Assembly (NCBI GenBank): GCA_000004985.1
Contig: GG738845.1
Source: Naegleria gruberi
Taxonomy: Eukaryota
DNA: 64,000 nucleotides
Direction: 5' to 3' (one strand)
Below are positions 48,801 through 64,000 of the stretch, one piece after another; position 1 is the stretch's first letter; every line of letters begins with the position of its first letter. Position numbers and translations under genes: made by a program. The notes below the pieces were generated by a model that saw only the letters and a list, made by a program, of their open reading frames with translations, ran no database searches and had not been told where the DNA came from.

Positions 48801-50651
48801 ACCTATAGAAACTACAGGCAAGAGAGATTGAAAAATGCTAGTGAAATTGGATTAGAAATGCAAATGGGAACTCGTGTTGCAACAAATGTACCAACCAATA
48901 TCTATGATCACACAATAGCTAATGCTGCCACATTACAAAAAGGACCCCAAGATACAATTAATTATATCACCATGGCTAAAAACACTCAAGAGCAGGGAAT
49001 GCCAGATGTAAGTACTAACTTTGCATTCTTAATTATTTAATTTCAACAGAGATTGCTCTCATTCGTTGCTATTAACTTTGATGGAGATATTCAAAGAACA
49101 AAATCTGTGGAAGGTCCATTCCCTCAATTCAATCAAACCCTATCAATACCTCTAAAAACTGTAAATAATGACTATAGCCCAGAATCACTGAAATTAATTG
49201 ATAAGGAAATTTACTTTGATGTTTTTGATGAAATAACCGTTGAAGGCCTAAGAGACGAAAGAGATTACAATACCATAAATCAAAGAGCTGAATTTAAGTG
49301 GTTAGGCTCTTACTCAGTACCATTCTCTACTCTGTACCAAAACGGAAAAATAATTGGTACCTTTAGACTTAAAACACCTCCTCTCTATCTGGGCTATGGA
49401 AAATCTGTTAATGATCAGAACGCTTACACAGCCTTAACCGTCTGTATTACACTGGATCCTCCTTTGCCAAGACCAGAGAAAGTTGAAGATTTCATAATTA
49501 CTGGAGAGGGACCTGAAGTGTATTCTTACTGTCAGTGGTGGTCTAAAGTTGTGAGAAAGTCCAAATATGCAAAAACCAGGAATGTGAAATGTCTTGTTCC
49601 AAATATTGAAGGAAAGGCAACTTTACTTACAAGGTACATTACTCCACAAGACCCTCCTCCTGAATTACAGACAGCTTCTGAACTAGCAAGATTTGTATCC
49701 CTCATTCCTCTTTTAAACGATTCATTAACGTTTGACGCAGGAGATATTTGGATTGGATCCCAAGAGTTTTTAGATACAAGGGCTGGTGATTGGGAAGAAC
49801 ATTCAATTCTTCTGTGCAACTATTTCCTTAGTTTGGGTAAAACAACTTTCTTTGTTCTTGGAAAAGGTGTCCCAGAAGGAGATACTGCATATGTTCTTAC
49901 AGTTGAAACCAGCGCAACAATTACACATAACAATAACCATTCGTATCAGGAAAATAGAAAGTGTTTATTGTTGTGGAACTCAGTAACCGGAGAGAAATAT
50001 TCAGTAGATGATCCTCTTTGTCCCCTTCAAGAAATACACTTAATTGCATCCCAAACAAATATTTGGATTAATGTGCAAAAACATGCCCAGCCATCCATGA
50101 TGAAATTTGATCTTAATGATATTTCACTATTTTATCCTCTATATAACCCAACAAGAGATTCTAACAGGATGATTGCTAAAGAATGTTGCGATCAAAAAGG
50201 AAAGATTCAATATAAGAAACTACTATACAATAAGTGCTCTCCAAATAATAGCATAAGACTAGAACAAGATATTAGACGAGCAATTGAGGAAGGATTTTCT
50301 TTATGGAGACACAAAGCTACGATATGGGACAACTCTGTTAGCAAAACATTTAAAGAGCTTTTACAAAGTTTCGAAGCAAGCAAAAAGCTAGACCAAGCAC
50401 TAAGTGATGAAAACCAACAACAAGTTTTGGCCATTGTAAATGAATCAAGTGCAGTGAATGGTTTTCCCCTTAATTTTTGTTTCAAGGATATTGAGGAAAT
50501 TGTTACAGAAGTACGAAACACCATGGTATACGATACATATGAGCCGGATGTAAAGTTTGCACTAGCTGTGTATGTAGAGCCATATGCTAATGATATTTGT
50601 AGTGTGTGGGTTTACGTTGCATCAATTATCAACAAGAGAGGGTATTATTAA
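45839..50651 (+). CDS. CC2D2A (MKS6)-like ciliary transition-zone protein: N-terminal coiled coil, C2 domain, C-terminal inactive transglutaminase-like domain; 4 exons, about 1560 aa
   Basis: Exons 45839-47578, 47616-48550, 48593-49007, 49050-50651. Introns are 37, 42 and 42 nt, all GTAAGT...AG, one with an ACTAAC branch site. It has a basic/coiled-coil N-terminus, a C2-like beta-sandwich (RLLSFVAINFDGDIQRTKSVEGPFPQFNQTLSIPLKT...) and a TGL-like core with a degenerate catalytic site (DAGDIWIGSQEFLDTRAGDWEEHSILLCNYFLSLGKTTFFVLGKGVPEGDTAYVLTVE). The architecture and length match CC2D2A. Confidence 0.7.
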
Positions 50652-52266: not shown

Positions 52267-53481
52267 TTATTTTCTAAATCCGAACCAGCCACCAGAAGCT
52301 TGTTTCTTGTCTTCAACAGGTTGTTGTTGTTGTTGAGCTTTCTTAATGTTTTGTAATTTTGTAATAAAATCACGAGCTATTTGTTGTGCTGGTTTGTCTC
52401 TGTTTCCGTATTCATTTAAAATTGTCCTCACATCAATTTTACCAGATTTACTGGCTACAAGCTCCAAGAATGGTACTAAATCTGTCAGTAATCTGTCGGA
52501 TGTATCTCCTTTCCATGGCTCAACAACAAGTGTATTTTCAGGTTGCTTACTATAGGCTTCAGCACGGTGGTCAATCAAAACAATCCTTTCGATAGGTCTG
52601 TTCATCAATGACAGATCCTTAATAGTTTTACCATTCTCCATAGTTGTAGAATCCTTGAAGAGTTTGTGAGCATATTGATTTGGATCAAGTCTTTCAATAA
52701 TTTGTTGAACAGATGTCATATAATTTTCACTGAAAAATACCAATTCATAGTATTGACTAATTGTCTTGAGGAAATTATCCAATCCAGGACGTTTTTGTGT
52801 TTTCCAACCTGTACGTGGTGTGTAATAAGTATGAATCAAAAGGTCTTCGACTGCTAAAATCAAAACAGGTTTTTGAGGAGATCCTTCTGCAAGATCAGGA
52901 AGGAGTTTAGAATTGGTTGGTTTGGTTAATGGTGCCATGAGTTCATCAATTTTCTCTTTCAAATTATCAAAGCTAAATCCTATTTCGGAGTATAATCCAT
53001 ACATTGCATAGAGTCCCATCATCATAAAGAAGGGAAGTGAATATTTTACACCATATGCATGCCAGTTTGGTTTTGTACGAATTTTTTCAGTAGCTTGTTG
53101 GTCTCCCATATCCTCATAGTCTGCACCAGTTGTTTTCTTTTTTTCATTTGTCTTTTGTTCTTGTTGTGAATCCTTTTTTTCATTTGTCTTTTTTTCTTTC
53201 TTTGGTTCTTCTGCTTTCTTTTCTTCTTCAGCTGTTGAAGCTTCTTCTTGTTCCTCGGCTTCTTCTGGTTGTGGTGGAGGAGGATTGTTCTTTCTTTCCT
53301 CAGCCTTCATCTTTTTAATTCTTTCGGCTTTTTCTCTCAAATTATAATCATCTTCATTGGATGGTTTTGAACCAACACGAAGAAGAACTTTAGTAGACGA
53401 AGTGAAGGCTCTGTTTTGTTCCAAAGGTTGGAAAGAAAGGAATTTGTTTGTATTAATGTGGTTAAGAATTGATAAGTACAT
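52267..53481 (-). CDS. TIM50: mitochondrial import inner-membrane translocase subunit TIM50 (FCP1-like phosphatase fold)
   Basis: Presequence, single TM (YSLPFFMMMGLYAMYGLY) and the FCP1-homology domain. This is closely collinear with TIM50: KPVLILAVEDLLIHTYYTPRTGWKTQKRPGLDNFLKTISQYYELVFFSENYMTSVQQIIERLDP...IKDLSLMNRPIERIVLIDHRAEAYSKQPENTLVVEPWKGDTSDRLLTDLVPFLELVA. The real ATG is at 53481; the track start at 53484 is GTG. Confidence 0.85.
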   Translation of the reverse strand: MYLSILNHINTNKFLSFQPLEQNRAFTSSTKVLLRVGSKPSNEDDYNLREKAERIKKMKAEERKNNPPPPQPEEAEEQEEASTAEEEKKAEEPKKEKKTNEKKDSQQEQKTNEKKKTTGADYEDMGDQQATEKIRTKPNWHAYGVKYSLPFFMMMGLYAMYGLYSEIGFSFDNLKEKIDELMAPLTKPTNSKLLPDLAEGSPQKPVLILAVEDLLIHTYYTPRTGWKTQKRPGLDNFLKTISQYYELVFFSENYMTSVQQIIERLDPNQYAHKLFKDSTTMENGKTIKDLSLMNRPIERIVLIDHRAEAYSKQPENTLVVEPWKGDTSDRLLTDLVPFLELVASKSGKIDVRTILNEYGNRDKPAQQIARDFITKLQNIKKAQQQQQPVEDKKQASGGWFGFRK

Positions 53482-53721
53482 CACTAATAATTGTGAATAA
53501 GTGTAATATTAAAAACATACATTGCTCCTTCCTGGAAAGCTGTCTTCCCGTAGCTTTGGTGAGGGCAGGTAATAAATGTTTGAGCATTTTTTAAAGATTT
53601 GTTGGAAATAAAAATTCAATCAATTTATTATATAAAAATATTATTCTAATTCAAAGATTAAATATTTAATATTAATTGTTTGAGGGAAAATTATTTTATC
53701 GCTAACATTAAATATAATTAT

Positions 53722-55384
53722 TTAATGATCTAAAATTTTACTTTTCAATAATTGCTTCTTAGAGAATGATGTTAATTGTCTTACATGGCTGTCCAAAGCA
53801 TCAGAAAATTTGTTGTAAATAGTATAGGAGACATTGTTTTCCTTGCATACCTTTTTAACAATTGGTAAAATTTTTGGGTACAACCATGGATTAATACCAG
53901 GGAATAAGTGATGAATAACTTGGTAGTTCAAAAAACCAGAAAGATATGTCCAGAGGTAACTGTCATGACAATAATCAATGCAGGTAGTGACTTGAATAGC
54001 AGCCCAATCCAAATCGTCATTTCCACCATTGCCTTCATTGCTGTTATCGACCATCTCATTAATAGCATTTGATGGCCAAGCACATTTTTCAGAGATATGA
54101 TTAATTTGAGAAAGGAAGCCAAACATTACTCCAGCAACGATTTCAGTAGCAATAAAGGTCAAAACAGTTTCCATAACATTACGACCAATTAAACCCCCTG
54201 TCTTGTTAAATAAAAAGATTGGTAAAACTATTCTATAAATAAAGAAGAATATCTTACTTCCATAGAAATGGAAAGTAGTAGAGCTAAATGTGGGTGTGGC
54301 AAATGCAATACCTTCACTGACATGTCTTGTCCAATAATGGATAAAATCAACAATTTGCATGTAAAAGATCAATGAAGCATACAAGAAAGGCAATGATCCA
54401 AAAGAACCAGTCTTTGCCATGATATCTACAGGAACAGATGTATAATCCTTTGGTTCAGAATACATTTTAGCAATCAAATCAACCTTTTCATTTTTTGAAC
54501 AAGTGGCCTTAGTTGCTGAAGATGGAGTATTATCAATGTGTCTGTTCCAAGTGTAGACACCAACATCAGGATCAATCTCACTCATGTTAGTATAACTGTT
54601 TTGATAATTAGAAAAGAAAAATACCTAATACATACACGTGATGACCAACATTATGTCTAATGGTCCAAACATAAAAGGATTGGCCCAAAACATATGATCC
54701 AAAATTACCAATCAATCTCCACACTGTTGGAAAATCAGTGAAAGAACCATGACCTAAATCATGAACTACATGAACCAATGCAAGATGATGGAATAAACCA
54801 GCTAATAAACCCAATAAAATTGCAACTCCCAAATTGATTGATGGAAAATATTGAGAGAGAATTTGGCAAGTTAATAGACCTGTGAAAATAAAAATTGCAT
54901 TGCAAAGTCTAAGGCCTGAAACTCTTCTTATGTTCTTTTTGAATCCACTACTTTCATTCTTAATTAATTCATCTCTAATACGTTGTTTCATAATTTCATA
55001 AATATTTGTTTTGTTTGTTGATTGCTTTGGGCCAGAAAGAGGTGATTGGAAAGTGAATTTAATTGCAGCATCATTTGGTAGTTCATCTTGATTAAGAGGA
55101 AGCTTTCCTACTTTGGCACTTTCAACATCGAACTCTCCCACATACTTGATAGAACCTCCAGTGCCTTTGAGGTAGGATCTTGCAATTGATTCGGATGATA
55201 AATGGTATGATTCAAACAAGGCAGTAGCATCACGGGCGCAAGCAGATTCTATCATCTCACGACCACCAGGGTGCTTATCGGCAAACTCCGTCAAATCATA
55301 AACTTTATCGTAGAGAACTGTCCATAAACGAGTGTTCTTTACTCCATCATGCTCTTGAAGTTGTTCGAGTGTAATTTTACTCAT
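53722..55384 (-). CDS. front-end fatty-acid/sphingolipid desaturase with N-terminal cytochrome b5 domain; 2 exons
   Basis: Exon 1 is 54636-55384 and exon 2 is 53722-54580. The intron is 54581-54635 (55 nt, GTATGT ... TACTAAC ... AG). There is a cyt-b5 HPGG heme motif (DKHPGGREMIESACARDATALFESYH). His box 1 is HDLGHGS, His box 2 is RHNVGHH and the Gln-type His box 3 is QVIHHLFPGI, as in delta5/delta6/delta8 front-end desaturases. Splicing joins ...HNVGHHV to EIDPDVGVYTWNRH. Confidence 0.8.
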
Positions 55385-55864
55385 TTTTTTTTTGATGTTT
55401 CACAATGCGAAATGTGAAAATATATTGTAATTAAATTGAATTGAAGCCTTTTCGGTTATAAGATAACTTTGGAGGAGTCCACACTTGTTATTCAACACCT
55501 GACTTTGTTTTTTTTGAAAAGGTCAACATTATAATTCATCGTAATGAATGGGGAGGTTTCATTAACTAGAGAGTGATGACTCGAGTAATCATATGCCATA
55601 TTTTGATTACAATGTTTTGAAAACTAAATAGTAAGGTTTGTTTTAAGGAATTTAGACAAGTTTGGTCGTTTCCTCTAACCCGTTCTGCTCTTTCATTAAT
55701 AATTTCATTAAATGTTGCTAATACCATTAAAAAATCTAATGTGTTATTATTATATGTAATAGGCCTGTAAATCATGCATAATTAATTGTCAAGTATTGTT
55801 TGCCATCTATGATAGTTGATTGTTTCATCATATCCATTTTACTTTTATTAAAAAAATATTAAAA

Positions 55865-58243
55865 ATGAAAGGGTTCAGTCTCTCTCTCCCTCTTGCTAAA
55901 GTTGTTACGGTTGGCGAGGAGGTTGATAACCAAAATGTACAACCTACAACAATTACACAACAAAATTCACAAATAGAACCTAATATTGCTTCTGTTCCTT
56001 TGATATCAAAATTGAACATCTCTTTAAATATGTCAAATACTTCAGCACAAAACAATATTTCTGAAGATGAAGGCATGATACAAAAACCAACTGATTCTTT
56101 TTTTTCCTCTATATCTATTGATAACGAACCAGTAGAAATTGAAAACATCGCTAAACTTTCATCATCTTCATCACCATCACAATACACTAGTAATATTAAA
56201 ATTTATGAATGTTTTGATGATTCTCCTTTTGGTACTGATAGCAACAAACCTTGGAAGAAAGATTTTAAATGTAGAGCATTTCCTCTTTTGAATGGAAAAG
56301 ATTCAAAATTTAAAGTATCATCATGCTATATTGTCATACATTTATTCCAACACCTAGATCAACAAACCAAGAACCGTGATGAGACCAGGGATGAAAATAA
56401 CTTTAAAATGATAGAGCAATTATTCACTTGGGGAACTATTGGCTCATTTAAAGATCAAAGTTATCATGATCTGTCATTCACTCCTCGTGGCTTGGAACAT
56501 CCATTTTCTAGTTCAAGAATTGATCAAAACAACAGGTTTAACTTTGATTTATACGTATGGTATGGTAAAGAATCAACCGATTTTGTAAAGAGTAGAACTA
56601 TTGAAAAAGCTTTAAAATTAGAATCCCAGTTACAACAACCATCAATTGTAGAGAGTTTATTCACATCCGGAAAACCTCAATCTTTTGAAGATTTAATCAA
56701 ATCTGGTAATGCTACTTATCCTTCTAACGTGCCATCAATTTCAATATCAAAAAACCATCACTTACTTTCCCGAATTAGATCTTTAATGGTAGGAGTTAAT
56801 AATATCAACAAATGTAAATTTTTGTTTGATGAGTTATCTACAACACCACCCGATGAAAATTCCAATGAGAAACTCAACAGTTTGCTACAATTACGAAAGC
56901 GACCAATGGCTGGTGTTACTAATCATGAGGATTCACTAGAATCTCCAAGAAAAAAAGAGAGAACCCAACTAAGTCCTATCAATACTCGTGAAGTTGAACA
57001 TGTCGAGGAACCCAAAGTAATGAGTGGAAGAGAATTAGCAAAAGCCTGCCATTATGTTTGTTCTAAAATTACTGATTTCCTATTTCTTGGAAGCGCTGCT
57101 GTAGCACAAGACAAGAAGAAATTAAATGATAACGGAATTACTCATATAATTAATGCAGCTGCTAGTGTTTATTGTGATAATTATTTCCCTAATGATTTTA
57201 CTTACTATTCTCTCAGCTTATATGATGATCCTAACGAATCTATCATTGGTTCTTTTTATGGAGTTATAGAATTTATTGAAAATGCAATCAAGAAAGGCGG
57301 TAAAATTTATGTACATTGTCAAATGGGAGTTTCCAGATCATGCTGTTTATGTATTTCATATATGATGTGGAAATATAGAATGAACTTTAATCAAGCACTA
57401 GAGGATGTGAAAACAAAGAGAGCATGTTGCTCTCCTAATGCTGGTTTTTTAGTACAACTTACTCAATGGGAAACAATACTAGGATTGAGTGATAAGTCAA
57501 AAAAAGAACCAAATGCATATCTCTATCGCATTAGTCCTCTAAATAACTTTTATGCCATTCACAAAGAATTAGTTCCAAAGCTATGTCACAATACTAGACA
57601 TTTAGATTCAAGAACATGTTTCTTGCTTCAATCAAAGAGTCATTTGTTCCTTTGGGTTGGATCACAAAGTACAAACGAACTCTTAGAAGCTGCCAACAAG
57701 TTTATTGAGATATTGAGATCATACTCTCCTAATTCTTTGAATGCATGCATTCAAATGCAAGAAGGTCAAGAAAATGATGAATTCAACCAAATTTTAAATT
57801 CTTTAGAAATTGATACTAGGCGTGCCCCTACCGAATATCAAGATTTAAAGTATCTTCAAATGACACAAGAGGATGCTATGGAGTTAATGAATCAAATTAA
57901 AACAACATCTGGCGAACCTGTTGATCCTGAAACTGAAAAGGAAATGAAAAATTACAAAACTGGAACTTTGTACAGTTATGAAGATAGATCATTTAGCGAG
58001 TTTGATTATTTTGATAGTGAGGATATTTTAGATGATATGTGTTATGTTATGCTGCCTGAAAATGAAGATCACATTCTTGTAATGATTGGTTATGATGTAG
58101 ATCTTGGTGATGACAGTTTGGATGATAGGGGAGAAGAAATTGGAGAGCTCTTTATTGCATGGAAAAAACTACCTGAAAGTACTTCCATTAGGGTTTGTGA
58201 AGAGGATGATCCTGATTTCTTTAGGTACTTTAAGAATGGTTAA
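55865..58243 (+). CDS. dual-specificity protein phosphatase with C-terminal gelsolin-like domain (about 790 aa)
   Basis: DSP catalytic domain with the CX5R P-loop VHCQMGVSRSCCLCISYMMW, flanked by DKKKLNDNGITHIINAA. Downstream there is a gelsolin-type fold (RTCFLLQSKSHLFLWVGSQSTNELLEAANKFIEI) and an acidic C-terminus. The annotated start is the first ATG (MKGFSLSL); the track start at 55820 is TTG. Confidence 0.75.
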   Translation: MKGFSLSLPLAKVVTVGEEVDNQNVQPTTITQQNSQIEPNIASVPLISKLNISLNMSNTSAQNNISEDEGMIQKPTDSFFSSISIDNEPVEIENIAKLSSSSSPSQYTSNIKIYECFDDSPFGTDSNKPWKKDFKCRAFPLLNGKDSKFKVSSCYIVIHLFQHLDQQTKNRDETRDENNFKMIEQLFTWGTIGSFKDQSYHDLSFTPRGLEHPFSSSRIDQNNRFNFDLYVWYGKESTDFVKSRTIEKALKLESQLQQPSIVESLFTSGKPQSFEDLIKSGNATYPSNVPSISISKNHHLLSRIRSLMVGVNNINKCKFLFDELSTTPPDENSNEKLNSLLQLRKRPMAGVTNHEDSLESPRKKERTQLSPINTREVEHVEEPKVMSGRELAKACHYVCSKITDFLFLGSAAVAQDKKKLNDNGITHIINAAASVYCDNYFPNDFTYYSLSLYDDPNESIIGSFYGVIEFIENAIKKGGKIYVHCQMGVSRSCCLCISYMMWKYRMNFNQALEDVKTKRACCSPNAGFLVQLTQWETILGLSDKSKKEPNAYLYRISPLNNFYAIHKELVPKLCHNTRHLDSRTCFLLQSKSHLFLWVGSQSTNELLEAANKFIEILRSYSPNSLNACIQMQEGQENDEFNQILNSLEIDTRRAPTEYQDLKYLQMTQEDAMELMNQIKTTSGEPVDPETEKEMKNYKTGTLYSYEDRSFSEFDYFDSEDILDDMCYVMLPENEDHILVMIGYDVDLGDDSLDDRGEEIGELFIAWKKLPESTSIRVCEEDDPDFFRYFKNG

Positions 58244-58344: not shown

Positions 58345-58947
58345 ATGACCGACTCCAACAACAAATCTCTAACACCTCTTTCCGAATTTCGATTGAGGAA
58401 TCCGAGAGATTTTATAAGAATACAAACAGAAGACATACACAATATGTTTTTTGAGTTGAGGAGAACGGAGCAAGATGCAGACAAAAGATTGTTTTCAAAT
58501 TCAGAAAAATTATTAAAACAAATGCAAGATCTAGCCGAGGAACAAAAGAGAGTTCTTAGTGGATATAACTATAATGCCTTGGTGGAGGATAATCACTCAA
58601 TAAGGAATGAAATTGTAAATAGAAGCCTTGTAAAACAACAAGATATTCAAAGAAGACATTCTATCAAGAAACTTGAAAAACAAATCAGGCAAGATCATTC
58701 TAGATATCAACGAGAAGACCAGATTGACCAAAAATCAGAAGGATTTTTCAGAGGAGGTCAAGAAAATGGAGCATTTCATGAAGTTGCATTTCTTAACTTG
58801 AAAAACAACAATATTCAGGCAACCATTGATACAAATTTTCTAGACAATACATATTTTGAAAATTGTATCGAACAAGAAAACAGTCAAGAAAACAAAACAC
58901 CTCCTATTAGAATGTTTCATTCCAAGAGTCTAAGGAGGAAATGCTAA
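58345..58947 (+). CDS. hypothetical basic coiled-coil protein (about 200 aa)
   Basis: ORF with K/R/Q/E-rich helical sequence (LLKQMQDLAEEQKRVLSGYNYNALVEDNHSIRNEIVNRSLVKQQDIQRRHSIKKLEKQIRQDHSRYQRED). The first ATG is at about 58345 (MTDSNNKSL); the track start at 58312 is an alternative codon. Confidence 0.45.
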   Translation: MTDSNNKSLTPLSEFRLRNPRDFIRIQTEDIHNMFFELRRTEQDADKRLFSNSEKLLKQMQDLAEEQKRVLSGYNYNALVEDNHSIRNEIVNRSLVKQQDIQRRHSIKKLEKQIRQDHSRYQREDQIDQKSEGFFRGGQENGAFHEVAFLNLKNNNIQATIDTNFLDNTYFENCIEQENSQENKTPPIRMFHSKSLRRKC

Positions 58948-58997: not shown

Positions 58998-61823
58998 ATG
59001 GGAAATAATAATACATCGTCAAGTACAGTTAATGCAAACAATAACACCATCTCCGTAGGGTCATCAAACTATCAAAATTATAATGTACAAAGTAAATTTC
59101 ATCCACAGCAACAATTGCAATTATATTGCGAATTTATTCCTGGAGATGAAGTGAGAGTAAAAAGACCTTTAATCTCCAACAATAACATCAATTTACCAAT
59201 CTCTAACCCCACTTTAAACCCACAACAAGCTACAAATATTTATCCAAGTTTTGAATCTTACGATTCCGTACTACCAACCCCATCTCAAACATACATCAAC
59301 AGTAATACGATCCAAACATCTAAAAAGAACCCACAACTCAAGATTGGAACAACAAAAACAAGAATAGTGGATGATTTTGTGATGGTTGATCCAGGAAGTC
59401 CTGCTCTTAACCCACCAACAACTACTTCAATCAATAATAATGTCACACTATCTGATCCATCGAATATTAGATATGATATTAGCTTTCAACCTTCTTCCTA
59501 TCAAACACCTCAGAGTGTACATCATGAGAGTTTTTATTCTTCTTCAAATTCTTTCAACAATTCAAACCCGAATCAAAATTCAGGATATTACGGACAGCCT
59601 GGAGGTACTCCAATCACTGGCAAAGAACATCCACAATATGTTATGCCACCTCCTCCAACTGGTGATATTTACCAATTTCCACAGAATCAAACTTTTAGTC
59701 AAATGTCATACTTTTATCCTCAACTATTTAGTGCTGAATTTTACAGCTCTAACCACATAGTTAAAACTGTAAATGTAAAAACAGTTCCCACAGCAACTTT
59801 TGGACAATACACTTCTGTTGTGGAAATTACTCTTGAAGATGATCCTTATAAGCTAATTTTCTATTCCAACGAGTTAGAACAAATATTTAATGAAAAACAT
59901 CATCAAAGAAGAGTTGAGTATAGGATCATAGAGAGATATGTTCAAATGTGTAGACAAACTCAAACCTATTTATCTACATCTAATTGTACAATACCCATTA
60001 TTGATCCTATCCCAACAGTTTTGGACCTATACACCGAGCATATAAAGAAAGGTACAGCTGTTGTAAGATTGGATCTTGTAGGAATAGGACTTGGTGATGA
60101 GGATGCCAAGGCAGTGGCTTGGACCCTACTTCCACCTTGGTCTATTGGTTCCTCTGTAAGAAGATTGAATTTAAGCGGAAATAAGCTGACATCTAAAGGA
60201 GCTCAATACGTTTCAAACGCCTTCATGTCCCCTTCTACCCAATATTTGAAAAATTTTAATAATACTGGTTCATTTTCTGTAAAGGAGCTAGATTTGAGTT
60301 TTAATAGAGAAATAGGTTTAGCTGGAGCTCAACATTTAGCAAACATGTTATCAAAAAATACTTCATTGACATATGTAAATTTCGCTCAGACTGGTATAAC
60401 TGCTGTAGGATGTGATTTGATAATATCAGCACTTATTCAAAACACAAACTCTTCTGTAATTAAGTTGGATTTAAGACACGACCTAATTGGAGAGGATCAG
60501 ATAGCAAAATTGTGTACCTTAGTAGAAAAAAGAAATTGTTTGTGTTTTCTTGAAATTTATCCTTATAAGGAGATTTCAATGAATGATTCTTTAGAAGATG
60601 ATAATGATGGATGGTTATCATACGATGGATGGGTAAAACACTCACTATTAAGAGAATTACTGGAAAAAAATATGGACTATATGAAGAACCATCCTAAAAA
60701 ACTTCAAAAGAAAGCATCATTAAGTATCAACAAAACACCAACTGCTTCGCCTTCTACAACAGATACTAATGTTGAAATATTAAGCTCATTTATTAATTCA
60801 ATGTTTTCCACTACCACTAAGGTAAACGAGGAACCAAGTGTAACTAATAAGGAGATTGATGACACAGAGTTATCATTCGATAATGATATTTTTAGTTTGA
60901 GCGTTTCTGATCCGCTGAAAAATGATAGAGTTGTAAATTATTTAAAATTGGCTGGAGACGAACATAATCACATGCCAATGGATGATGGTTCTAGTGTCAT
61001 TACCTGTTCCATTTGTTATGAGGATAATAGACCAACAGATGGTACTGTTTTCTTCATGGAGGATTGTGAACATAGATTCTGTTGTACGTGCATTTATGAC
61101 TATGTTAAAGATAAGATTCAAAAAGGAGAGGTGGATAGTATTAAATGTCCAGAATGTGATAGACAATTAACGGTAGTTGAAGTCAAACAGATTTTGAGCC
61201 AAGGTAGAGTTAACAAGATATCCCAATCACATTACTCACAAGCAGAAGATGAAAATTTGTTCAGCAAATTTGAAGAATTTTCTCTAAAGAGAGCTTTAGG
61301 AGGTATGAAAGATTTAGTGTGGTGTCCAAATCCAAAATGTGGAAATGCCATTATAGTAGAGAGTCCAAATATTAACTCTGACCTTCCCACATCACCTCTT
61401 CCTCTATCTCCTTCAACTGTAAAACACAAACCCCACACAACACAAAATACTTCTCCTAATCCACAACTTTCTAGCTCTTTCCGAAAGAAAATGCCAGCTA
61501 TCAAAGTGCATTGCTCTCATTGTTCTTGGGATTCATGCTCTAAATGTATGCAAAAATGGCATGCAGGTCTGACTTGTGAAGAAAATGAAGAGCGAACCAA
61601 AACAAAACAAGACGAACAATTCAAAGAGTGGATGAAAGATCAAGGGGCAAAGGTTTGTCCAACATGTGGGGCCGTAATTCAAAAAACTAGAGGTTGTAAT
61701 TCGATGCTTTGTACTCAGTGTAACACCAAGTTTTGTTATTTTTGTGGTAAATCTTTTTCAACTTCAGAAAAAGAGCATTACAAAAGTTGTTATAAGTGGA
61801 GTCTATTTGGATTTAATTTATAA
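58998..61823 (+). CDS. RBR-type (RING-IBR-RING) E3 ubiquitin ligase with N-terminal leucine-rich-repeat region and predicted N-myristoylation site
   Basis: MGNNNTS at the N-terminus fits the MGxxxS/T myristoylation motif. The central region is RNI-like LRRs (VVRLDLVGIGLGDEDAKAVAWTL..., RRLNLSGNKLTSKGAQYVSN..., ELDLSFNREIGLAGAQHLANMLS..., YVNFAQTGITAVGCDLIISAL...). RING1 is ITCSICYED...CEHRFCCTCIYDYV...IKCPECDRQ. The IBR is WCPNPKCGNAII...HCSHCSWDSCSKCMQKWHAGLTCEE. RING2 is KVCPTCGAVIQKTRGCNSMLCTQCNTKFCYFCGK. Confidence 0.85.
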   Translation: MGNNNTSSSTVNANNNTISVGSSNYQNYNVQSKFHPQQQLQLYCEFIPGDEVRVKRPLISNNNINLPISNPTLNPQQATNIYPSFESYDSVLPTPSQTYINSNTIQTSKKNPQLKIGTTKTRIVDDFVMVDPGSPALNPPTTTSINNNVTLSDPSNIRYDISFQPSSYQTPQSVHHESFYSSSNSFNNSNPNQNSGYYGQPGGTPITGKEHPQYVMPPPPTGDIYQFPQNQTFSQMSYFYPQLFSAEFYSSNHIVKTVNVKTVPTATFGQYTSVVEITLEDDPYKLIFYSNELEQIFNEKHHQRRVEYRIIERYVQMCRQTQTYLSTSNCTIPIIDPIPTVLDLYTEHIKKGTAVVRLDLVGIGLGDEDAKAVAWTLLPPWSIGSSVRRLNLSGNKLTSKGAQYVSNAFMSPSTQYLKNFNNTGSFSVKELDLSFNREIGLAGAQHLANMLSKNTSLTYVNFAQTGITAVGCDLIISALIQNTNSSVIKLDLRHDLIGEDQIAKLCTLVEKRNCLCFLEIYPYKEISMNDSLEDDNDGWLSYDGWVKHSLLRELLEKNMDYMKNHPKKLQKKASLSINKTPTASPSTTDTNVEILSSFINSMFSTTTKVNEEPSVTNKEIDDTELSFDNDIFSLSVSDPLKNDRVVNYLKLAGDEHNHMPMDDGSSVITCSICYEDNRPTDGTVFFMEDCEHRFCCTCIYDYVKDKIQKGEVDSIKCPECDRQLTVVEVKQILSQGRVNKISQSHYSQAEDENLFSKFEEFSLKRALGGMKDLVWCPNPKCGNAIIVESPNINSDLPTSPLPLSPSTVKHKPHTTQNTSPNPQLSSSFRKKMPAIKVHCSHCSWDSCSKCMQKWHAGLTCEENEERTKTKQDEQFKEWMKDQGAKVCPTCGAVIQKTRGCNSMLCTQCNTKFCYFCGKSFSTSEKEHYKSCYKWSLFGFNL

Positions 61824-61847: not shown

Positions 61848-64000
61848 CTAATTATCAACGCTTACAAGTTTAAATAAATCAGAAAGGTTTACCATTTGTC
61901 TGGCGTTTCTTTGTAGGTATTTGGAAACATGTTTGTAGATTTTGCCAAGCTCGTCTATTTCTTGTTTTTGCATTTCTTGTACAACAGCTTTCAATTTTTC
62001 TAATGAAGAATATTGTTCCTTGTCTATTTTCTTGAAAGTTGCTTTTACACAGGAAGACCAATCAAACATACGAGCTAAATATCTCAATCTAACCTGCAGA
62101 TCTTGAGGAGTAAAGGTTTGTTTGACAGATACAACAGATCCATTAAAAACGCCATAACCCCCAGGTTGCATAGATATAACATGAGTCGATGAATCCGAGA
62201 TGTTGGCTCTATAGTTACTAGCAGAAGGCTTTAACTCATTTGAGTAATATTTCTTGATGAGTTCTCTAATATTTAGTTGTGAAAGATTGACAATTTTGTT
62301 TGTGGACATTCTAGATTTGCAATGAGGACAATCAAGAATGGTAATACTCTGCATCATGTCTGTATCTGTTGTGCTAATAGCATTCGTCAAAGTTGAAACA
62401 AGGTCAAGGTTTACCTTGTTCGAACAGTGATCACAAGTAAAGTTGACAGGTAGTTCAATACCTTCAAATTCATCGTATTCTTCCTGCCTAGAGAGTATTT
62501 TATACTCTTCCATGTTATCATCGTCACCATAGCTAGTTCTGAAATATTTCTTCTCTAGTCCCAAGCATTCGGCTATCAGAGCTTTGTCTGTTTGTTGTAA
62601 ATATTCACACAAACGAGAAACTGGAGGGAATACTTGTTGAGCAAGATACCATTCATAATCAAGTTCCAAATTATTATCTTTTTGCTCTGCTCTGAAGGTA
62701 TCTGGATGAACAGCTCTTTCAGAAACTTTGGAGGAAGAAGTACCATCCTTTCTTAAGGTGATAACGAAGGGAATACGTTGATGCAGTCTAACAGCTTGAC
62801 CATTTCTTCTCATTTCTAAAGCAACCTGAACATGAGGATGATTAATGGCATCTGTATATTGTTCAGGTTCTTTTGTGAGTGCTGTTGTGAGAATATATTG
62901 TTCAAGTGGAACTCTATTATTTCTTACATCGTCAGCAATTTCTCTAAGGTGGGTATGGATGTTAGCAACTATTTCTTCTGGTGTTGGTTGTGTTTGGCAG
63001 TCTACAGGTTCATTTGGTCTTAATATTTGATCAATAATGTATTGAGAAACGTTTCTAGAAAGATCACACCAATCTCTTCTGACCATATCAAGGCCTTTAA
63101 GTTCAAGTTTTGGGATAATTGTGCCTTGCTTATTTTTAGTATGAATTAGGGCACCATATTTCTTCTTTCTAAGGAGTAACATTCTTCTAAATAAACCATC
63201 AATATCAATTTCCAATTTTCCTTTACCTTTTCTAAAGGAATTGTTAATTTCCTTTTTGATTTCCTCACCCTTAGATAGAGCCTCATCATAGTTTGTAGTG
63301 TCGGTGGCAATCATAACAGAGTCAGTATCACCATAGATAACGCTGAATCTCAAACTATTCTCAATTAATTGTTTAGTTTGAGTCAAAATGTTTCTTCCTT
63401 CTACTGTAATTGATTCTGCCATTTGCTTGCAAAAAAATCTACTAAAAGTAAAACCTAAACAACCATAGGTAGAGTTTGCTGTCAATTTCAAAGCACGTTG
63501 ACGCATGTCATATTGCCATCTTTGTACACCAGTTGCTTGTTCCATTTGTCTTTGAGCTTGTCTTCTTCTTGAAAGTAGTGTTTCAATAACTAGAGGCAAT
63601 ACGGTTTTATCATTCTTGTGTTCCTCTCTCTCTTCTTCAGTGTATAAAAAATTAGAGAAACAAATATTATTTTCCAAAATGATAGATGGGTAAAGAGAGT
63701 TGAAATCCAAAAGAAGTACATAATTGTGATGAAAACCTGATTTAGGATCTAAAACTAAACCACCAGAATATTTTGGTTTTCTGCCACCACGTTTTCCAAA
63801 AGCACGTGATTTGTCTGGCAAAATATATTTTTGTTTGTAGAACTCATGAAGCAATAGATACTCAATACGTTCACTTCTAGATCCAATGAGAGTTCTATTC
63901 CATAAATTACCTGCTGCATTTGTAAGTTCCTTGGTAAGAGGGATTAAACTTAATTTTTCCATCAAATCCATTGACACTTGTGCATCATGTTCTACAAAGG
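61848..64000 (-). CDS. POLA1: DNA polymerase alpha catalytic subunit, C-terminal two-thirds (gene continues beyond window end)
   Basis: B-family polymerase motifs: region II DFNSLYPSIILENNICFSNF (the pol-alpha version DFNSLYPSII), motif C YGDTDSVMI, the KKKYG motif (LLRKKKYGAL), and the C-terminal zinc-finger pair CDHCSNK...CPHCKSRM. The frame is open to position 64000 (...FVEHDAQVS MDLMEKLSLIPLTKELTNAAGNLWNRTLIGSRSERIEYLLLHEFY). The track start at 63977 is a GTG within the frame. Confidence 0.9.
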   Translation of the reverse strand, partial: FVEHDAQVSMDLMEKLSLIPLTKELTNAAGNLWNRTLIGSRSERIEYLLLHEFYKQKYILPDKSRAFGKRGGRKPKYSGGLVLDPKSGFHHNYVLLLDFNSLYPSIILENNICFSNFLYTEEEREEHKNDKTVLPLVIETLLSRRRQAQRQMEQATGVQRWQYDMRQRALKLTANSTYGCLGFTFSRFFCKQMAESITVEGRNILTQTKQLIENSLRFSVIYGDTDSVMIATDTTNYDEALSKGEEIKKEINNSFRKGKGKLEIDIDGLFRRMLLLRKKKYGALIHTKNKQGTIIPKLELKGLDMVRRDWCDLSRNVSQYIIDQILRPNEPVDCQTQPTPEEIVANIHTHLREIADDVRNNRVPLEQYILTTALTKEPEQYTDAINHPHVQVALEMRRNGQAVRLHQRIPFVITLRKDGTSSSKVSERAVHPDTFRAEQKDNNLELDYEWYLAQQVFPPVSRLCEYLQQTDKALIAECLGLEKKYFRTSYGDDDNMEEYKILSRQEEYDEFEGIELPVNFTCDHCSNKVNLDLVSTLTNAISTTDTDMMQSITILDCPHCKSRMSTNKIVNLSQLNIRELIKKYYSNELKPSASNYRANISDSSTHVISMQPGGYGVFNGSVVSVKQTFTPQDLQVRLRYLARMFDWSSCVKATFKKIDKEQYSSLEKLKAVVQEMQKQEIDELGKIYKHVSKYLQRNARQMVNLSDLFKLVSVDN

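What the first reader, a model, noticed from the sequence alone, without database searches (positions are those of the whole stretch)
55865..58243. Unusual domain fusion: dual-specificity phosphatase plus gelsolin-like domain
The ~790-aa protein combines a bona fide DSP catalytic core (VHCQMGVSRSCC P-loop) with a C-terminal segment that has the gelsolin-repeat signature (...CFLLQSKSHLFLWVGSQSTNELLEAANKFIE...) and a long N-terminal region without obvious homology. Actin-regulating phosphatases of the slingshot type use different actin-binding modules. I am not aware of a described DSP-gelsolin combination. It could directly couple phosphatase activity to actin filaments.
Basis: partly seen in the sequence, partly recalled or inferred. 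Interest (0 to 1): 0.55.

Follow-up and report, generated by a model that had tools for sequence, protein, structure and literature searches.

The report
MKP1-type phosphatase with gelsolin domains
This gene really does fuse a dual-specificity phosphatase to gelsolin-like domains, but that design is already known from the plant MAP-kinase phosphatase MKP1 and is widespread in protists, so this is an ordinary new member of a known family.

Summary
Window 55865-58243 (+) is one uninterrupted 792-codon ORF. It has an intact DSP catalytic core (Pfam DSPc, E 6.5e-32) followed by a significant gelsolin repeat (Pfam PF00626, 32.4 bits, cutoff 21).

The claim of novelty does not hold. DSP plus gelsolin is the described architecture of plant MKP1 (PMC11182583), and Pfam has a dedicated family, PF25466 'MPK1 gelsolin domain C-terminal'. 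The window protein aligns with Eutrema MKP1 in one block across DSP and gelsolin (37% identity, E 5e-44). Its Acrasis kona homologue is already named MKP1. A profile search finds 1334 cluster representatives at E<=1e-30, including land plants, Heterolobosea, euglenids, ciliates, Chromera, an amoebozoan and Palpitomonas.

One addition: the N-terminal region 'without obvious homology' holds a divergent gelsolin-like domain (residues 88-272), and the C-terminus holds another (697-792). The layout is therefore GH-DSP-GH-GH. Plant MKP1 showed no N-terminal GH domain in the sequences I tested. Most protist relatives start with a myristoylation-type MGxxxS motif, which this lineage has replaced with an ~80-residue extension.

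The most likely function is a MAPK phosphatase, inferred from homology. Actin binding by the GH domains is untested. Interest is low.

The parts
55865..58243 (+). Complete single-exon gene: 792 codons plus TAA stop, encoding an MKP1-type dual-specificity phosphatase
   Evidence: ORF list, sequence around the start and stop, end-to-end alignment with homologues, and single-ORF homologues in Willaertia and in a Logan contig.
55865..56125 (+). Low-complexity N-terminal extension, residues 1-87. It starts with MKGFSLSLPL. SSISID (81-86) is the internal remnant of the MGxxISID N-terminus found in relatives.
   Evidence: AF2 pLDDT is below 50 here. The start motif xLSLPL is shared with P0001 and Willaertia P0003. 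76 of 100 relatives that carry the N-domain begin with MG.
56126..56680 (+). N-terminal divergent gelsolin-like domain (GH-N), residues 88-272, with a large insertion at about 165-212
56855..57058 (+). Conserved linear-motif linker, residues 331-398: LRKRPMAGV (343-351) and two Ser-Pro sites, SPRKKER (360-366) and LSPIN (369-373)
   Evidence: The linker is near-identical in P0001, P0002 and Willaertia P0003. My linker HMM matched about 10 of the 189 collected proteins, several of which were rows of the alignment it was built from. AF2 models it as disordered. A role in kinase docking or as phospho-sites is inference only.
57059..57484 (+). Dual-specificity phosphatase catalytic domain, residues 399-540. 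The P-loop HCQMGVSRS is at 484-492 and the presumed general-acid Asp454 lies in LYDDPNE.
   Evidence: Pfam DSPc E 6.5e-32. PDB sequence hits: DUSP1 E 1.2e-23, DUSP2, DUSP19, Slingshot-2. Foldseek matches MKP5 and DUSP1 at TM about 0.9 on the target. C485, R491 and D454 are invariant in the alignment.
57506..57808 (+). Middle gelsolin-homology domain (GH2), residues 548-648.
   Evidence: Pfam Gelsolin 32.4 bits against a cutoff of 21. Villin E 2.1e-10 and gelsolin E 5e-08. It is contiguous with the DSP domain in the alignment to Eutrema MKP1.
57953..58240 (+). C-terminal gelsolin-homology domain (GH3, MKP1 gelsolin_C type), residues 697-792
   Evidence: hhalign of GH2 against GH3 gives probability 98.6%, E 6e-16. 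Pfam PF25466 scores only 18 bits here, below its cutoff of 27, but 57.2 bits in the Acrasis homologue P0004, which also hits Pfam Gelsolin at E 6.9e-11 in the same region. AF2 pLDDT is 70-90 with a beta-sheet plus long-helix topology. This sequence alone has no PDB sequence hit.

Best explanation
The gene encodes a catalytically competent member of the MKP1 family of dual-specificity phosphatases. In this family a VH1/DUSP-type catalytic domain is permanently fused to gelsolin-homology (GH) domains. In this heterolobosean protein the layout is GH-N, then a disordered linker with conserved basic and Ser-Pro motifs, then DSP, GH2 and GH3. By homology with plant MKP1, its most likely job is to bind activated MAP kinases, dephosphorylate their activation-loop pThr and pTyr, and so switch off MAPK signalling. 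The GH domains would then act as non-catalytic targeting or regulatory modules. What is shown: the domain composition, the intact catalytic residues, and homology to plant MKP1 across DSP and GH in a single block. What is inferred: the MAPK substrate and any role of the GH domains or the linker motifs. I put family membership at about 0.9 and MAPK as the main substrate at about 0.55-0.6.
For: The DSPc and Gelsolin matches are significant. BLASTP against Eutrema salsugineum 'protein-tyrosine-phosphatase MKP1' gives 37% identity over 255 aa, spanning DSP, the inter-domain segment (YRISP/YKMSP, LVPKL, LDSR) and the GH domain in one block, E 5e-44. The profile of the window protein and 7 homologues scores plant MKP1 representatives at 263-295 bits: Diphasiastrum, Marchantia, Sphagnum and Eutrema. 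The Acrasis kona homologue (40% identity) is named MKP1 by NCBI and UniRef and passes the Pfam PF25466 cutoff at 57 bits. GH2 and GH3 are homologous to each other at 98.6% probability. The Cys, Arg and Asp catalytic residues are invariant. Foldseek on the whole model returns MKP/DUSP catalytic domains (E about 1e-12) and also villin and gelsolin G1-G3 (E about 3e-11, 324-349 aligned columns). Plant MKP1 proteins bind MPK3/4/6 and lower their phosphorylation (PMC11182583).
Against: Nothing here tests substrate specificity. The catalytic domain alone is about equally similar to animal MKPs (DUSP1, 86.7 bits), DUSP19 (83.9 bits) and Slingshot-2 (80.6 bits). There is no rhodanese/KIM domain of the animal MKP type. 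No clear D-motif or FxFP docking motif was found. LRKRPMAGV only loosely resembles a D-motif, and FNF, FLF and FLF are the only FxF strings. Heterolobosea and plants are very distant, so function may have diverged. The extra N-terminal GH domain was not detected in the plant sequences tested.
Confidence: 0.62

Rival explanations
1. Actin-targeted phosphatase. The GH domains bind G- or F-actin and place the catalytic domain on the cortical cytoskeleton, where it dephosphorylates actin regulators, as Slingshot does, rather than or in addition to MAP kinases.
For: There are three gelsolin-fold domains. The N-domain profile aligns best with the G1/V1- and V4-type segment WxGxxSxxxxxxxAxxxxxELDxxL of villin and gelsolin, and keeps an acidic residue (E/D in the conserved ELE/ELD) where villin has ELDD. 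The catalytic domain is about as similar to Slingshot-2 (E 8.2e-22) as to MKPs. Most relatives carry an N-terminal MGxxxS myristoylation-type motif, which would put them at the membrane or cortex.
Against: No Slingshot-specific domain is present. In GH2 the residue aligned with the Asp of villin SNDCF is Thr584 (SRTCF), and the family consensus there is Gly; identifying that Asp as a gelsolin type-2 Ca2+ ligand is from my recollection. Gelsolin-like folds also occur in proteins without an actin function: Sec23 and Sec24 appear among the weaker hits. The plant homologues have MAPK substrates, and none of the papers retrieved here reports actin binding for the MKP1 GH domain. The N-domain model shows a helix, not strands, after the long helix, and has a large insertion.
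Confidence: 0.15
2. The GH domains are purely intramolecular regulatory or protein-docking modules with no actin role, for example auto-inhibition of the DSP domain that is relieved by substrate kinase, calmodulin or phosphorylation of the linker. The enzyme may have a broader or different substrate range than MAPKs.
For: GH2 follows the catalytic domain directly, through a short conserved segment kept from plants to Heterolobosea. The linker upstream of the DSP domain carries conserved Ser-Pro sites. The wheat paper cites reports that durum wheat TdMKP1 is regulated by calmodulin and 14-3-3 proteins and that AtMKP1 phosphorylation is required for its function (PMC11182583).
Against: There is no direct evidence. 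The AF2 full-length model has pTM of only 0.42, so inter-domain packing cannot be read from it.
Confidence: 0.18
3. Artefact: two neighbouring genes, a phosphatase and a gelsolin-like gene, merged by a sequencing error or a missed intron or stop. Alternatively, a dead pseudophosphatase.
For: None found.
Against: The ORF is continuous for 792 codons. The same single-ORF architecture is present in the Willaertia magna genome and in a further contig. About 130 of the 189 collected relatives carry a GH2 domain next to the DSP domain. The catalytic Cys485, Arg491 and Asp454 are conserved.
Confidence: 0.02

Closest known systems
Plant MAP kinase phosphatase 1 (AtMKP1, TaMKP1, OsMKP1, NtMKP1; represented here by Eutrema salsugineum MKP1, P0132)
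   Same: The DSP catalytic domain is followed directly by a gelsolin-homology domain, with a homologous inter-domain segment. Identity is 37% over 255 aa, E 5e-44. My domain HMM detects a C-terminal GH3-type domain in Marchantia, Diphasiastrum and Sphagnum MKP1-like proteins; it did not reach threshold in the Eutrema MKP1 sequence. The catalytic motifs are the same.
   Different: No N-terminal gelsolin-like domain was detected in the plant sequences (HMM E>2). Plants have long Ser-rich or other regions between GH2 and GH3. Calmodulin-binding sites are reported for the plant proteins (my own knowledge of the NtMKP1 and OsMKP1 literature, not verified here) and were not looked for. The plant proteins have demonstrated MAPK substrates; this protein has none demonstrated.
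Protist MKP1-like phosphatases (Acrasis kona 'protein-tyrosine-phosphatase MKP1' P0004, Willaertia magna hypothetical protein P0003, Blepharisma stoltei 'dual specificity phosphatase' P0006)
   Same: Full-length collinear architecture GH-N, DSP, GH2, GH3. Identity is 52% to Willaertia, 40% to Acrasis and 27% to Blepharisma.
   Different: Acrasis, Blepharisma and most other members start with MG(N/S/Q)xx(S/G)(V/I)(D/E), a myristoylation-type N-terminus. The window protein and its Willaertia-like relatives instead carry an extra low-complexity extension of about 80 aa that starts with xLSLPL.
Gelsolin/villin/severin/fragmin actin severing and capping proteins
   Same: The gelsolin fold and the sequence signature (hydrophobic strand, W-x-G, long helix) are present in three domains.
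   Different: The domains are not a contiguous G1-G3 or G1-G6 array; they are split around an enzyme domain. In GH2 the residue aligned with the Asp of villin SNDCF is replaced by Thr. GH-N has a large insertion, and its model shows a helix rather than strands after the long helix. Actin activity is unknown.
Slingshot (SSH) cofilin phosphatases
   Same: A DUSP-type catalytic domain of similar sequence (SSH2 2nt2, E 8.2e-22, 33% identity in Foldseek). Conceptually, a DSP linked to the actin cytoskeleton.
   Different: No SSH-N or DEK_C domain is present. SSH has no gelsolin domains. The closest full-length relatives are MKP1 proteins, not SSH.
Animal MAPK phosphatases (DUSP1, 2, 4, 10)
   Same: These are the best solved-structure matches for the catalytic domain: DUSP1 E 1.2e-23, and MKP5 with target TM about 0.89.
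   Different: Animal MKPs use an N-terminal rhodanese-like domain with a kinase-interaction motif. That domain is absent here.

Membership tests
MKP1-type DSP-gelsolin phosphatases (plant MKP1 family) | DUSP/VH1-type catalytic domain with the HCxxGxxRS P-loop and a general-acid Asp | tested here: met
   Pfam DSPc E 6.5e-32. HCQMGVSRS is at 484-492 and D454, C485 and R491 are invariant.
MKP1-type DSP-gelsolin phosphatases (plant MKP1 family) | Gelsolin-homology domain immediately C-terminal to the catalytic domain, homologous to that of plant MKP1 | tested here: met
   Pfam Gelsolin scores 32.4 bits against a cutoff of 21. A single BLASTP block covers DSP and GH against Eutrema MKP1, E 5e-44.
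MKP1-type DSP-gelsolin phosphatases (plant MKP1 family) | C-terminal MKP1 gelsolin domain (Pfam PF25466) | tested here: inconclusive
   The window protein scores 18 bits, below the cutoff of 27. The collinear Acrasis homologue scores 57.2 bits. My own HMM of this domain hits Marchantia and Diphasiastrum MKP1-like proteins at E about 1e-09, and hhalign of GH2 against GH3 gives 98.6%.
MKP1-type DSP-gelsolin phosphatases (plant MKP1 family) | Binds and dephosphorylates MAP kinases | not testable with these tools
   This is known for TaMKP1 and AtMKP1 (PMC11182583) and needs biochemistry here.
MKP1-type DSP-gelsolin phosphatases (plant MKP1 family) | Calmodulin-binding region (reported for the plant proteins; my own knowledge) | not tested
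   No tool or motif model was available.
Gelsolin/villin superfamily of actin regulators | Gelsolin fold | tested here: met
Gelsolin/villin superfamily of actin regulators | Contiguous tandem array of 3 or 6 gelsolin domains | tested here: not met
   The domains lie at 88-272, 548-648 and 697-792 and are interrupted by a linker and the DSP domain.
Gelsolin/villin superfamily of actin regulators | Conserved type-2 Ca2+ ligands (an Asp in strand B and a Glu at the start of the long helix, as I recall them) | tested here: not met
   In GH2 the Asp of villin SNDCF aligns with Thr584 (SRTCF), and the family consensus there is Gly. In GH-N the residue aligned with the Glu of villin QDE is hydrophobic. 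The alignments are tool results; which gelsolin residues bind Ca2+ is from my own knowledge.
Gelsolin/villin superfamily of actin regulators | Actin binding, severing or capping | not testable with these tools
   Needs actin co-sedimentation or pyrene-actin assays.
Slingshot cofilin phosphatases | SSH-N and DEK_C domains N-terminal to the DSP domain | tested here: not met
   No such Pfam hits appear at E<=1 on the whole protein, and none at E<=10 on the N-terminal region.
Animal-type MKPs (DUSP1/DUSP6 class) | N-terminal rhodanese/Cdc25-homology domain with a kinase-interaction motif | tested here: not met
   There is no rhodanese hit. The N-terminal domain has a gelsolin-like fold instead.

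The most novel reading that the evidence does not exclude
The ancestral eukaryotic form of this family may be an N-myristoylated phosphatase with three gelsolin domains (GH-DSP-GH-GH). Its GH domains would genuinely bind actin, tethering MAPK or other dephosphorylation to the membrane-proximal actin cortex. Plant MKP1 would then be a derived form that lost the N-terminal GH domain. The amoeboflagellate gene in this window, which has swapped the myristoylation signal for a new N-terminal extension, would be a tractable system to find out what the still unexplained gelsolin domains of MKP1 do. As far as these tools show, the N-terminal GH domain is not covered by any Pfam model reaching its cutoff and is not mentioned in the papers retrieved here.
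Probability: 0.2. Interest if true: 0.5.

Novelty: new member of a known kind. Interest (0 to 1): 0.22.

Why it matters
As posed, it matters little. The 'unusual fusion' is the standard architecture of a known and very widespread phosphatase family. Two modest points may interest specialists. First, the protist members carry an additional, unannotated gelsolin-like domain at the N-terminus, usually behind a myristoylation-type start, and this domain was not detected in the plant MKP1 sequences tested. Second, the family occurs across Discoba, Alveolata, Amoebozoa, Cryptista and land plants, which suggests the DSP-gelsolin fusion is very old. None of the papers I retrieved assigns a function to the MKP1 gelsolin domains, so a motile amoeboid organism with a prominent actin cytoskeleton could be a good place to test whether they bind actin.

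Tried and rejected

3. An exact look-up of the window protein in public assemblies found nothing. The source organism is therefore unnamed. The nearest named relative is Willaertia magna at 52% identity, and two unnamed Logan proteins reach 65-66%.

4. The C-terminal domain alone against PDB sequences gave only chance hits to protein disulfide-isomerase, E about 0.4. Its gelsolin nature rests on family-level evidence.

5. Literature searches for a DSP-gelsolin phosphatase outside plants found nothing relevant. Only the wheat MKP1 paper in the held library mentions the gelsolin domain.

6. I searched for MAPK docking motifs. There is no FxFP, and LRKRPMAGV is only a loose D-motif look-alike. 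I do not use it as evidence.

7. I considered and rejected a gene-fusion artefact and a pseudophosphatase.

8. I considered Slingshot membership and rejected it for lack of SSH-specific domains.
Full report
**Observation**

Window 55820-58243 (+) is an uninterrupted ORF. From the ATG at 55865, which sits in an A-rich context, it encodes 792 aa and ends at TAA 58241-58243. The window is AT-rich (about 32% GC), and its neighbours are ordinary eukaryotic genes. The quoted P-loop VHCQMGVSRSCC lies at residues 483-494. The quoted gelsolin-like stretch lies at residues 585-615.

Pfam gives DSPc at 406-537 with E 6.5e-32 (110.6 bits, cutoff 33.5). It gives the Gelsolin repeat at 576-640 with E 8.2e-08 (32.4 bits, cutoff 21). 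It also gives a sub-threshold hit to PF25466 'MPK1 gelsolin domain C-terminal' at 756-783 (18 bits, cutoff 27). The catalytic domain matches DUSP1, DUSP2, DUSP19, Slingshot-2 and DUSP4 among solved structures, at E 1e-23 to 1e-21.

**Is the fusion real?**

The closest relatives are two unnamed Logan proteins (65-66% identity), Willaertia magna (52%) and Acrasis kona (40%, named 'protein-tyrosine-phosphatase MKP1'). All are collinear with the window protein from end to end. The Willaertia gene is a single 2388-nt ORF in a 505-kb NCBI contig, and a Logan relative is a single 2679-nt ORF. The window therefore comes from a heterolobosean related to Willaertia and Naegleria. Its exact protein is not in the public collection. 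An assembly or gene-model artefact is excluded.

**Full anatomy**

An AlphaFold2 model of the whole protein (8-sequence alignment, mean pLDDT 59, folded blocks 70-90) shows four folded units separated by disordered stretches. Foldseek against the PDB returns MKP/DUSP catalytic domains (E about 1e-12, target TM about 0.9). It also returns villin and gelsolin G1-G3 (E about 3e-11, 324-349 aligned columns). I built domain HMMs from the alignment. They define five regions:

- GH-N, residues 88-272
- a conserved linker, residues 331-398
- DSP, residues 399-540
- GH2, residues 548-648
- GH3, residues 697-792

GH2 alone hits villin (E 2.1e-10) and gelsolin (E 5e-08). GH3 is homologous to GH2 by profile-profile comparison (hhalign probability 98.6%, E 6e-16). 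In the Acrasis homologue the same region passes both PF25466 (57.2 bits) and Pfam Gelsolin (E 6.9e-11).

It contains a third gelsolin-like domain that is divergent.

- Pfam sees nothing in this sequence.
- A 34-sequence profile hits villin (E 3.4e-10), gelsolin (5.7e-05) and adseverin (7.1e-05).
- hhalign against GH2 gives 77% probability, E 2.1e-05.
- 12 of the 34 homologous segments hit Pfam Gelsolin weakly, best E 4.4e-04.
- The domain modelled alone reaches pLDDT 82 and pTM 0.80.

GH-N has a large insertion at about residues 165-212. The model shows a helix, not strands, after the long helix. I therefore call it 'gelsolin-like' rather than canonical.

**Comparison with what is known**

The DSP-gelsolin combination is already described. 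The wheat MKP1 paper states that TaMKP1 and AtMKP1 contain a DSP domain and a gelsolin repeat region (PMC11182583, Fig. 1 legend). Pfam has a family named for the MKP1 C-terminal gelsolin domain.

The window protein is homologous to this family, not merely similar in layout. BLASTP against Eutrema salsugineum MKP1 gives one block of 255 aa at 37% identity, E 5e-44. That block runs through the DSP domain, a conserved inter-domain segment (YRISP/YKMSP, LVPKL, LDSR) and the GH domain.

An exhaustive profile search found 35,299 representatives at E<=1e-3, most of them presumably matching through the DSP domain alone, and 1,334 at E<=1e-30. Nearly all of the best 150 carry a GH2 domain next to the DSP domain. 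Named members show a wide spread:

- Land plants: Eutrema, Marchantia, Diphasiastrum, Sphagnum
- Heterolobosea: Willaertia, Acrasis, Percolomonas
- Euglenida: Ploeotia
- Ciliates: Blepharisma, Climacostomum
- Chromera
- Amoebozoa: Stygamoeba
- Cryptista: Palpitomonas

GH-N is present in about 100 of the roughly 200 collected proteins. It was not detected in the plant sequences tested (E>2).

76 of the 100 proteins that carry GH-N begin with MG(N/S/Q)xx(S/G)(V/I)(D/E). This resembles the N-myristoylation consensus, which I cite from my own knowledge. In the window protein the homologous SSISID is internal (residues 81-86). It lies behind an ~80-residue low-complexity extension whose start, MKGFSLSLPL, is conserved in Willaertia (MLSLKLSLPI) and in P0001 (MFKLSLPL).

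**Mechanism**

Shown here:

- The catalytic apparatus is intact. Cys485, Arg491 and Asp454 are invariant.
- Three gelsolin-type domains flank the catalytic domain.
- The protein is homologous to plant MKP1 across DSP and GH2.

Inferred:

- The enzyme dephosphorylates the activation loop of MAP kinases, as plant MKP1 does for MPK3/4/6 (PMC11182583).
- The GH domains serve for targeting or regulation.
- The conserved linker motifs may be a kinase-docking element and proline-directed phospho-sites. These motifs are LRKRPMAGV and the Ser-Pro sites SPRKKER and LSPIN. This last point is weak, because no canonical D-motif or FxFP was found.

It cannot be excluded, because the domains are genuine gelsolin folds and the family's usual myristoylation-type start would place it at the cortex. 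Several points argue against it.

- In GH2 the residue aligned with the Asp of villin SNDCF is Thr584, and the family consensus there is Gly. Identifying that Asp as a gelsolin type-2 Ca2+ ligand is from my recollection.
- In GH-N the residue aligned with the Glu of villin QDE is hydrophobic.
- Gelsolin folds also occur in proteins with no actin function, such as Sec23 and Sec24.
- No Slingshot-specific domains are present.
- The only experimentally supported substrates in the family are MAPKs.

The catalytic domain alone does not discriminate between these readings. DUSP1 scores 86.7 bits, DUSP19 83.9 bits and Slingshot-2 80.6 bits.

**Verdict**

The finding is real but ordinary. It is a new heterolobosean member of the known MKP1-type DSP-gelsolin phosphatase family.

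The modest additions are the unannotated N-terminal gelsolin-like domain, the family's myristoylation-type N-terminus and its replacement in this lineage, and the very broad eukaryotic distribution of the fusion. Interest is about 0.2. The most novel reading still open is that the GH domains truly bind actin and that this is an ancestral cortex-tethered signalling phosphatase. I give that about 20% probability and moderate interest if true.

**Neighbourhood**

The flanking genes are unrelated housekeeping or signalling genes:

- a cytochrome-b5-fused fatty-acid desaturase split into two ORFs (53722-55384, -)
- a 200-aa ORF with no family match (58345-58947)
- an LRR plus RING-IBR-IBR ubiquitin ligase (58998-61823)
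- a NIF/FCP1-like phosphatase (52267-53484, -)
- CEP76 (49053-50651)
- the C-terminal part of DNA polymerase alpha (61848-63977, -)

Noticed in passing
window 58998-61823 (+): A 941-aa protein combines leucine-rich repeats (LRR_6) with a RING-IBR-IBR (RBR-type) ubiquitin-ligase module, behind a long low-complexity N-terminus. I did not look into whether the LRR-RBR combination is unusual.
   Followed up: partly
window 53722-55384 (-): A cytochrome-b5-fused fatty-acid desaturase is split into two ORFs (54608-55384 and 53722-54585). Desaturase profile positions about 74-133 are missing between them. This is probably a short intron, which would show that the genome has introns even though the phosphatase gene has none.
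   Followed up: no
window 55865-56125 (residues 1-87 of the phosphatase): 76 of 100 relatives that carry the N-terminal domain start with MG(N/S/Q)xx(S/G)(V/I)(D/E), a myristoylation-type motif. In this protein the homologous SSISID is internal, behind an ~80-aa extension whose start (xLSLPL) is conserved in Willaertia and one Logan relative. This suggests a lineage-specific change of membrane targeting.
   Followed up: partly
window 56855-57058 (residues 331-398): A disordered linker upstream of the catalytic domain is almost identical in the three closest relatives: LRKRPMAGV...SLESPRKKERTQLSP(I/L)NTR.VEHVEEPK. It contains two Ser-Pro sites. It might be a regulatory phosphorylation or docking region. 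This is untested.
   Followed up: partly
window 58345-58947 (+): A 200-aa ORF directly downstream of the phosphatase gene has no Pfam match at E<=0.001.
   Followed up: no
window 61848-63977 (-), 52267-53484 (-), 49053-50651 (+): Three further neighbours have clear family matches. One is the C-terminal part of DNA polymerase alpha (DNA_pol_B plus zf-DNA_Pol), whose listed ORF begins only 23 bases from the window end, so the gene probably continues beyond it. The second is a NIF/FCP1-like phosphatase. The third is a CEP76-like centrosomal protein, which is consistent with an organism that builds centrioles and flagella.
   Followed up: no
whole window: The exact phosphatase protein is not on record in the public protein and contig collection. 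The best named relative is Willaertia magna at only 52% identity. The source appears to be a heterolobosean whose proteins are not in those collections.
   Followed up: partly
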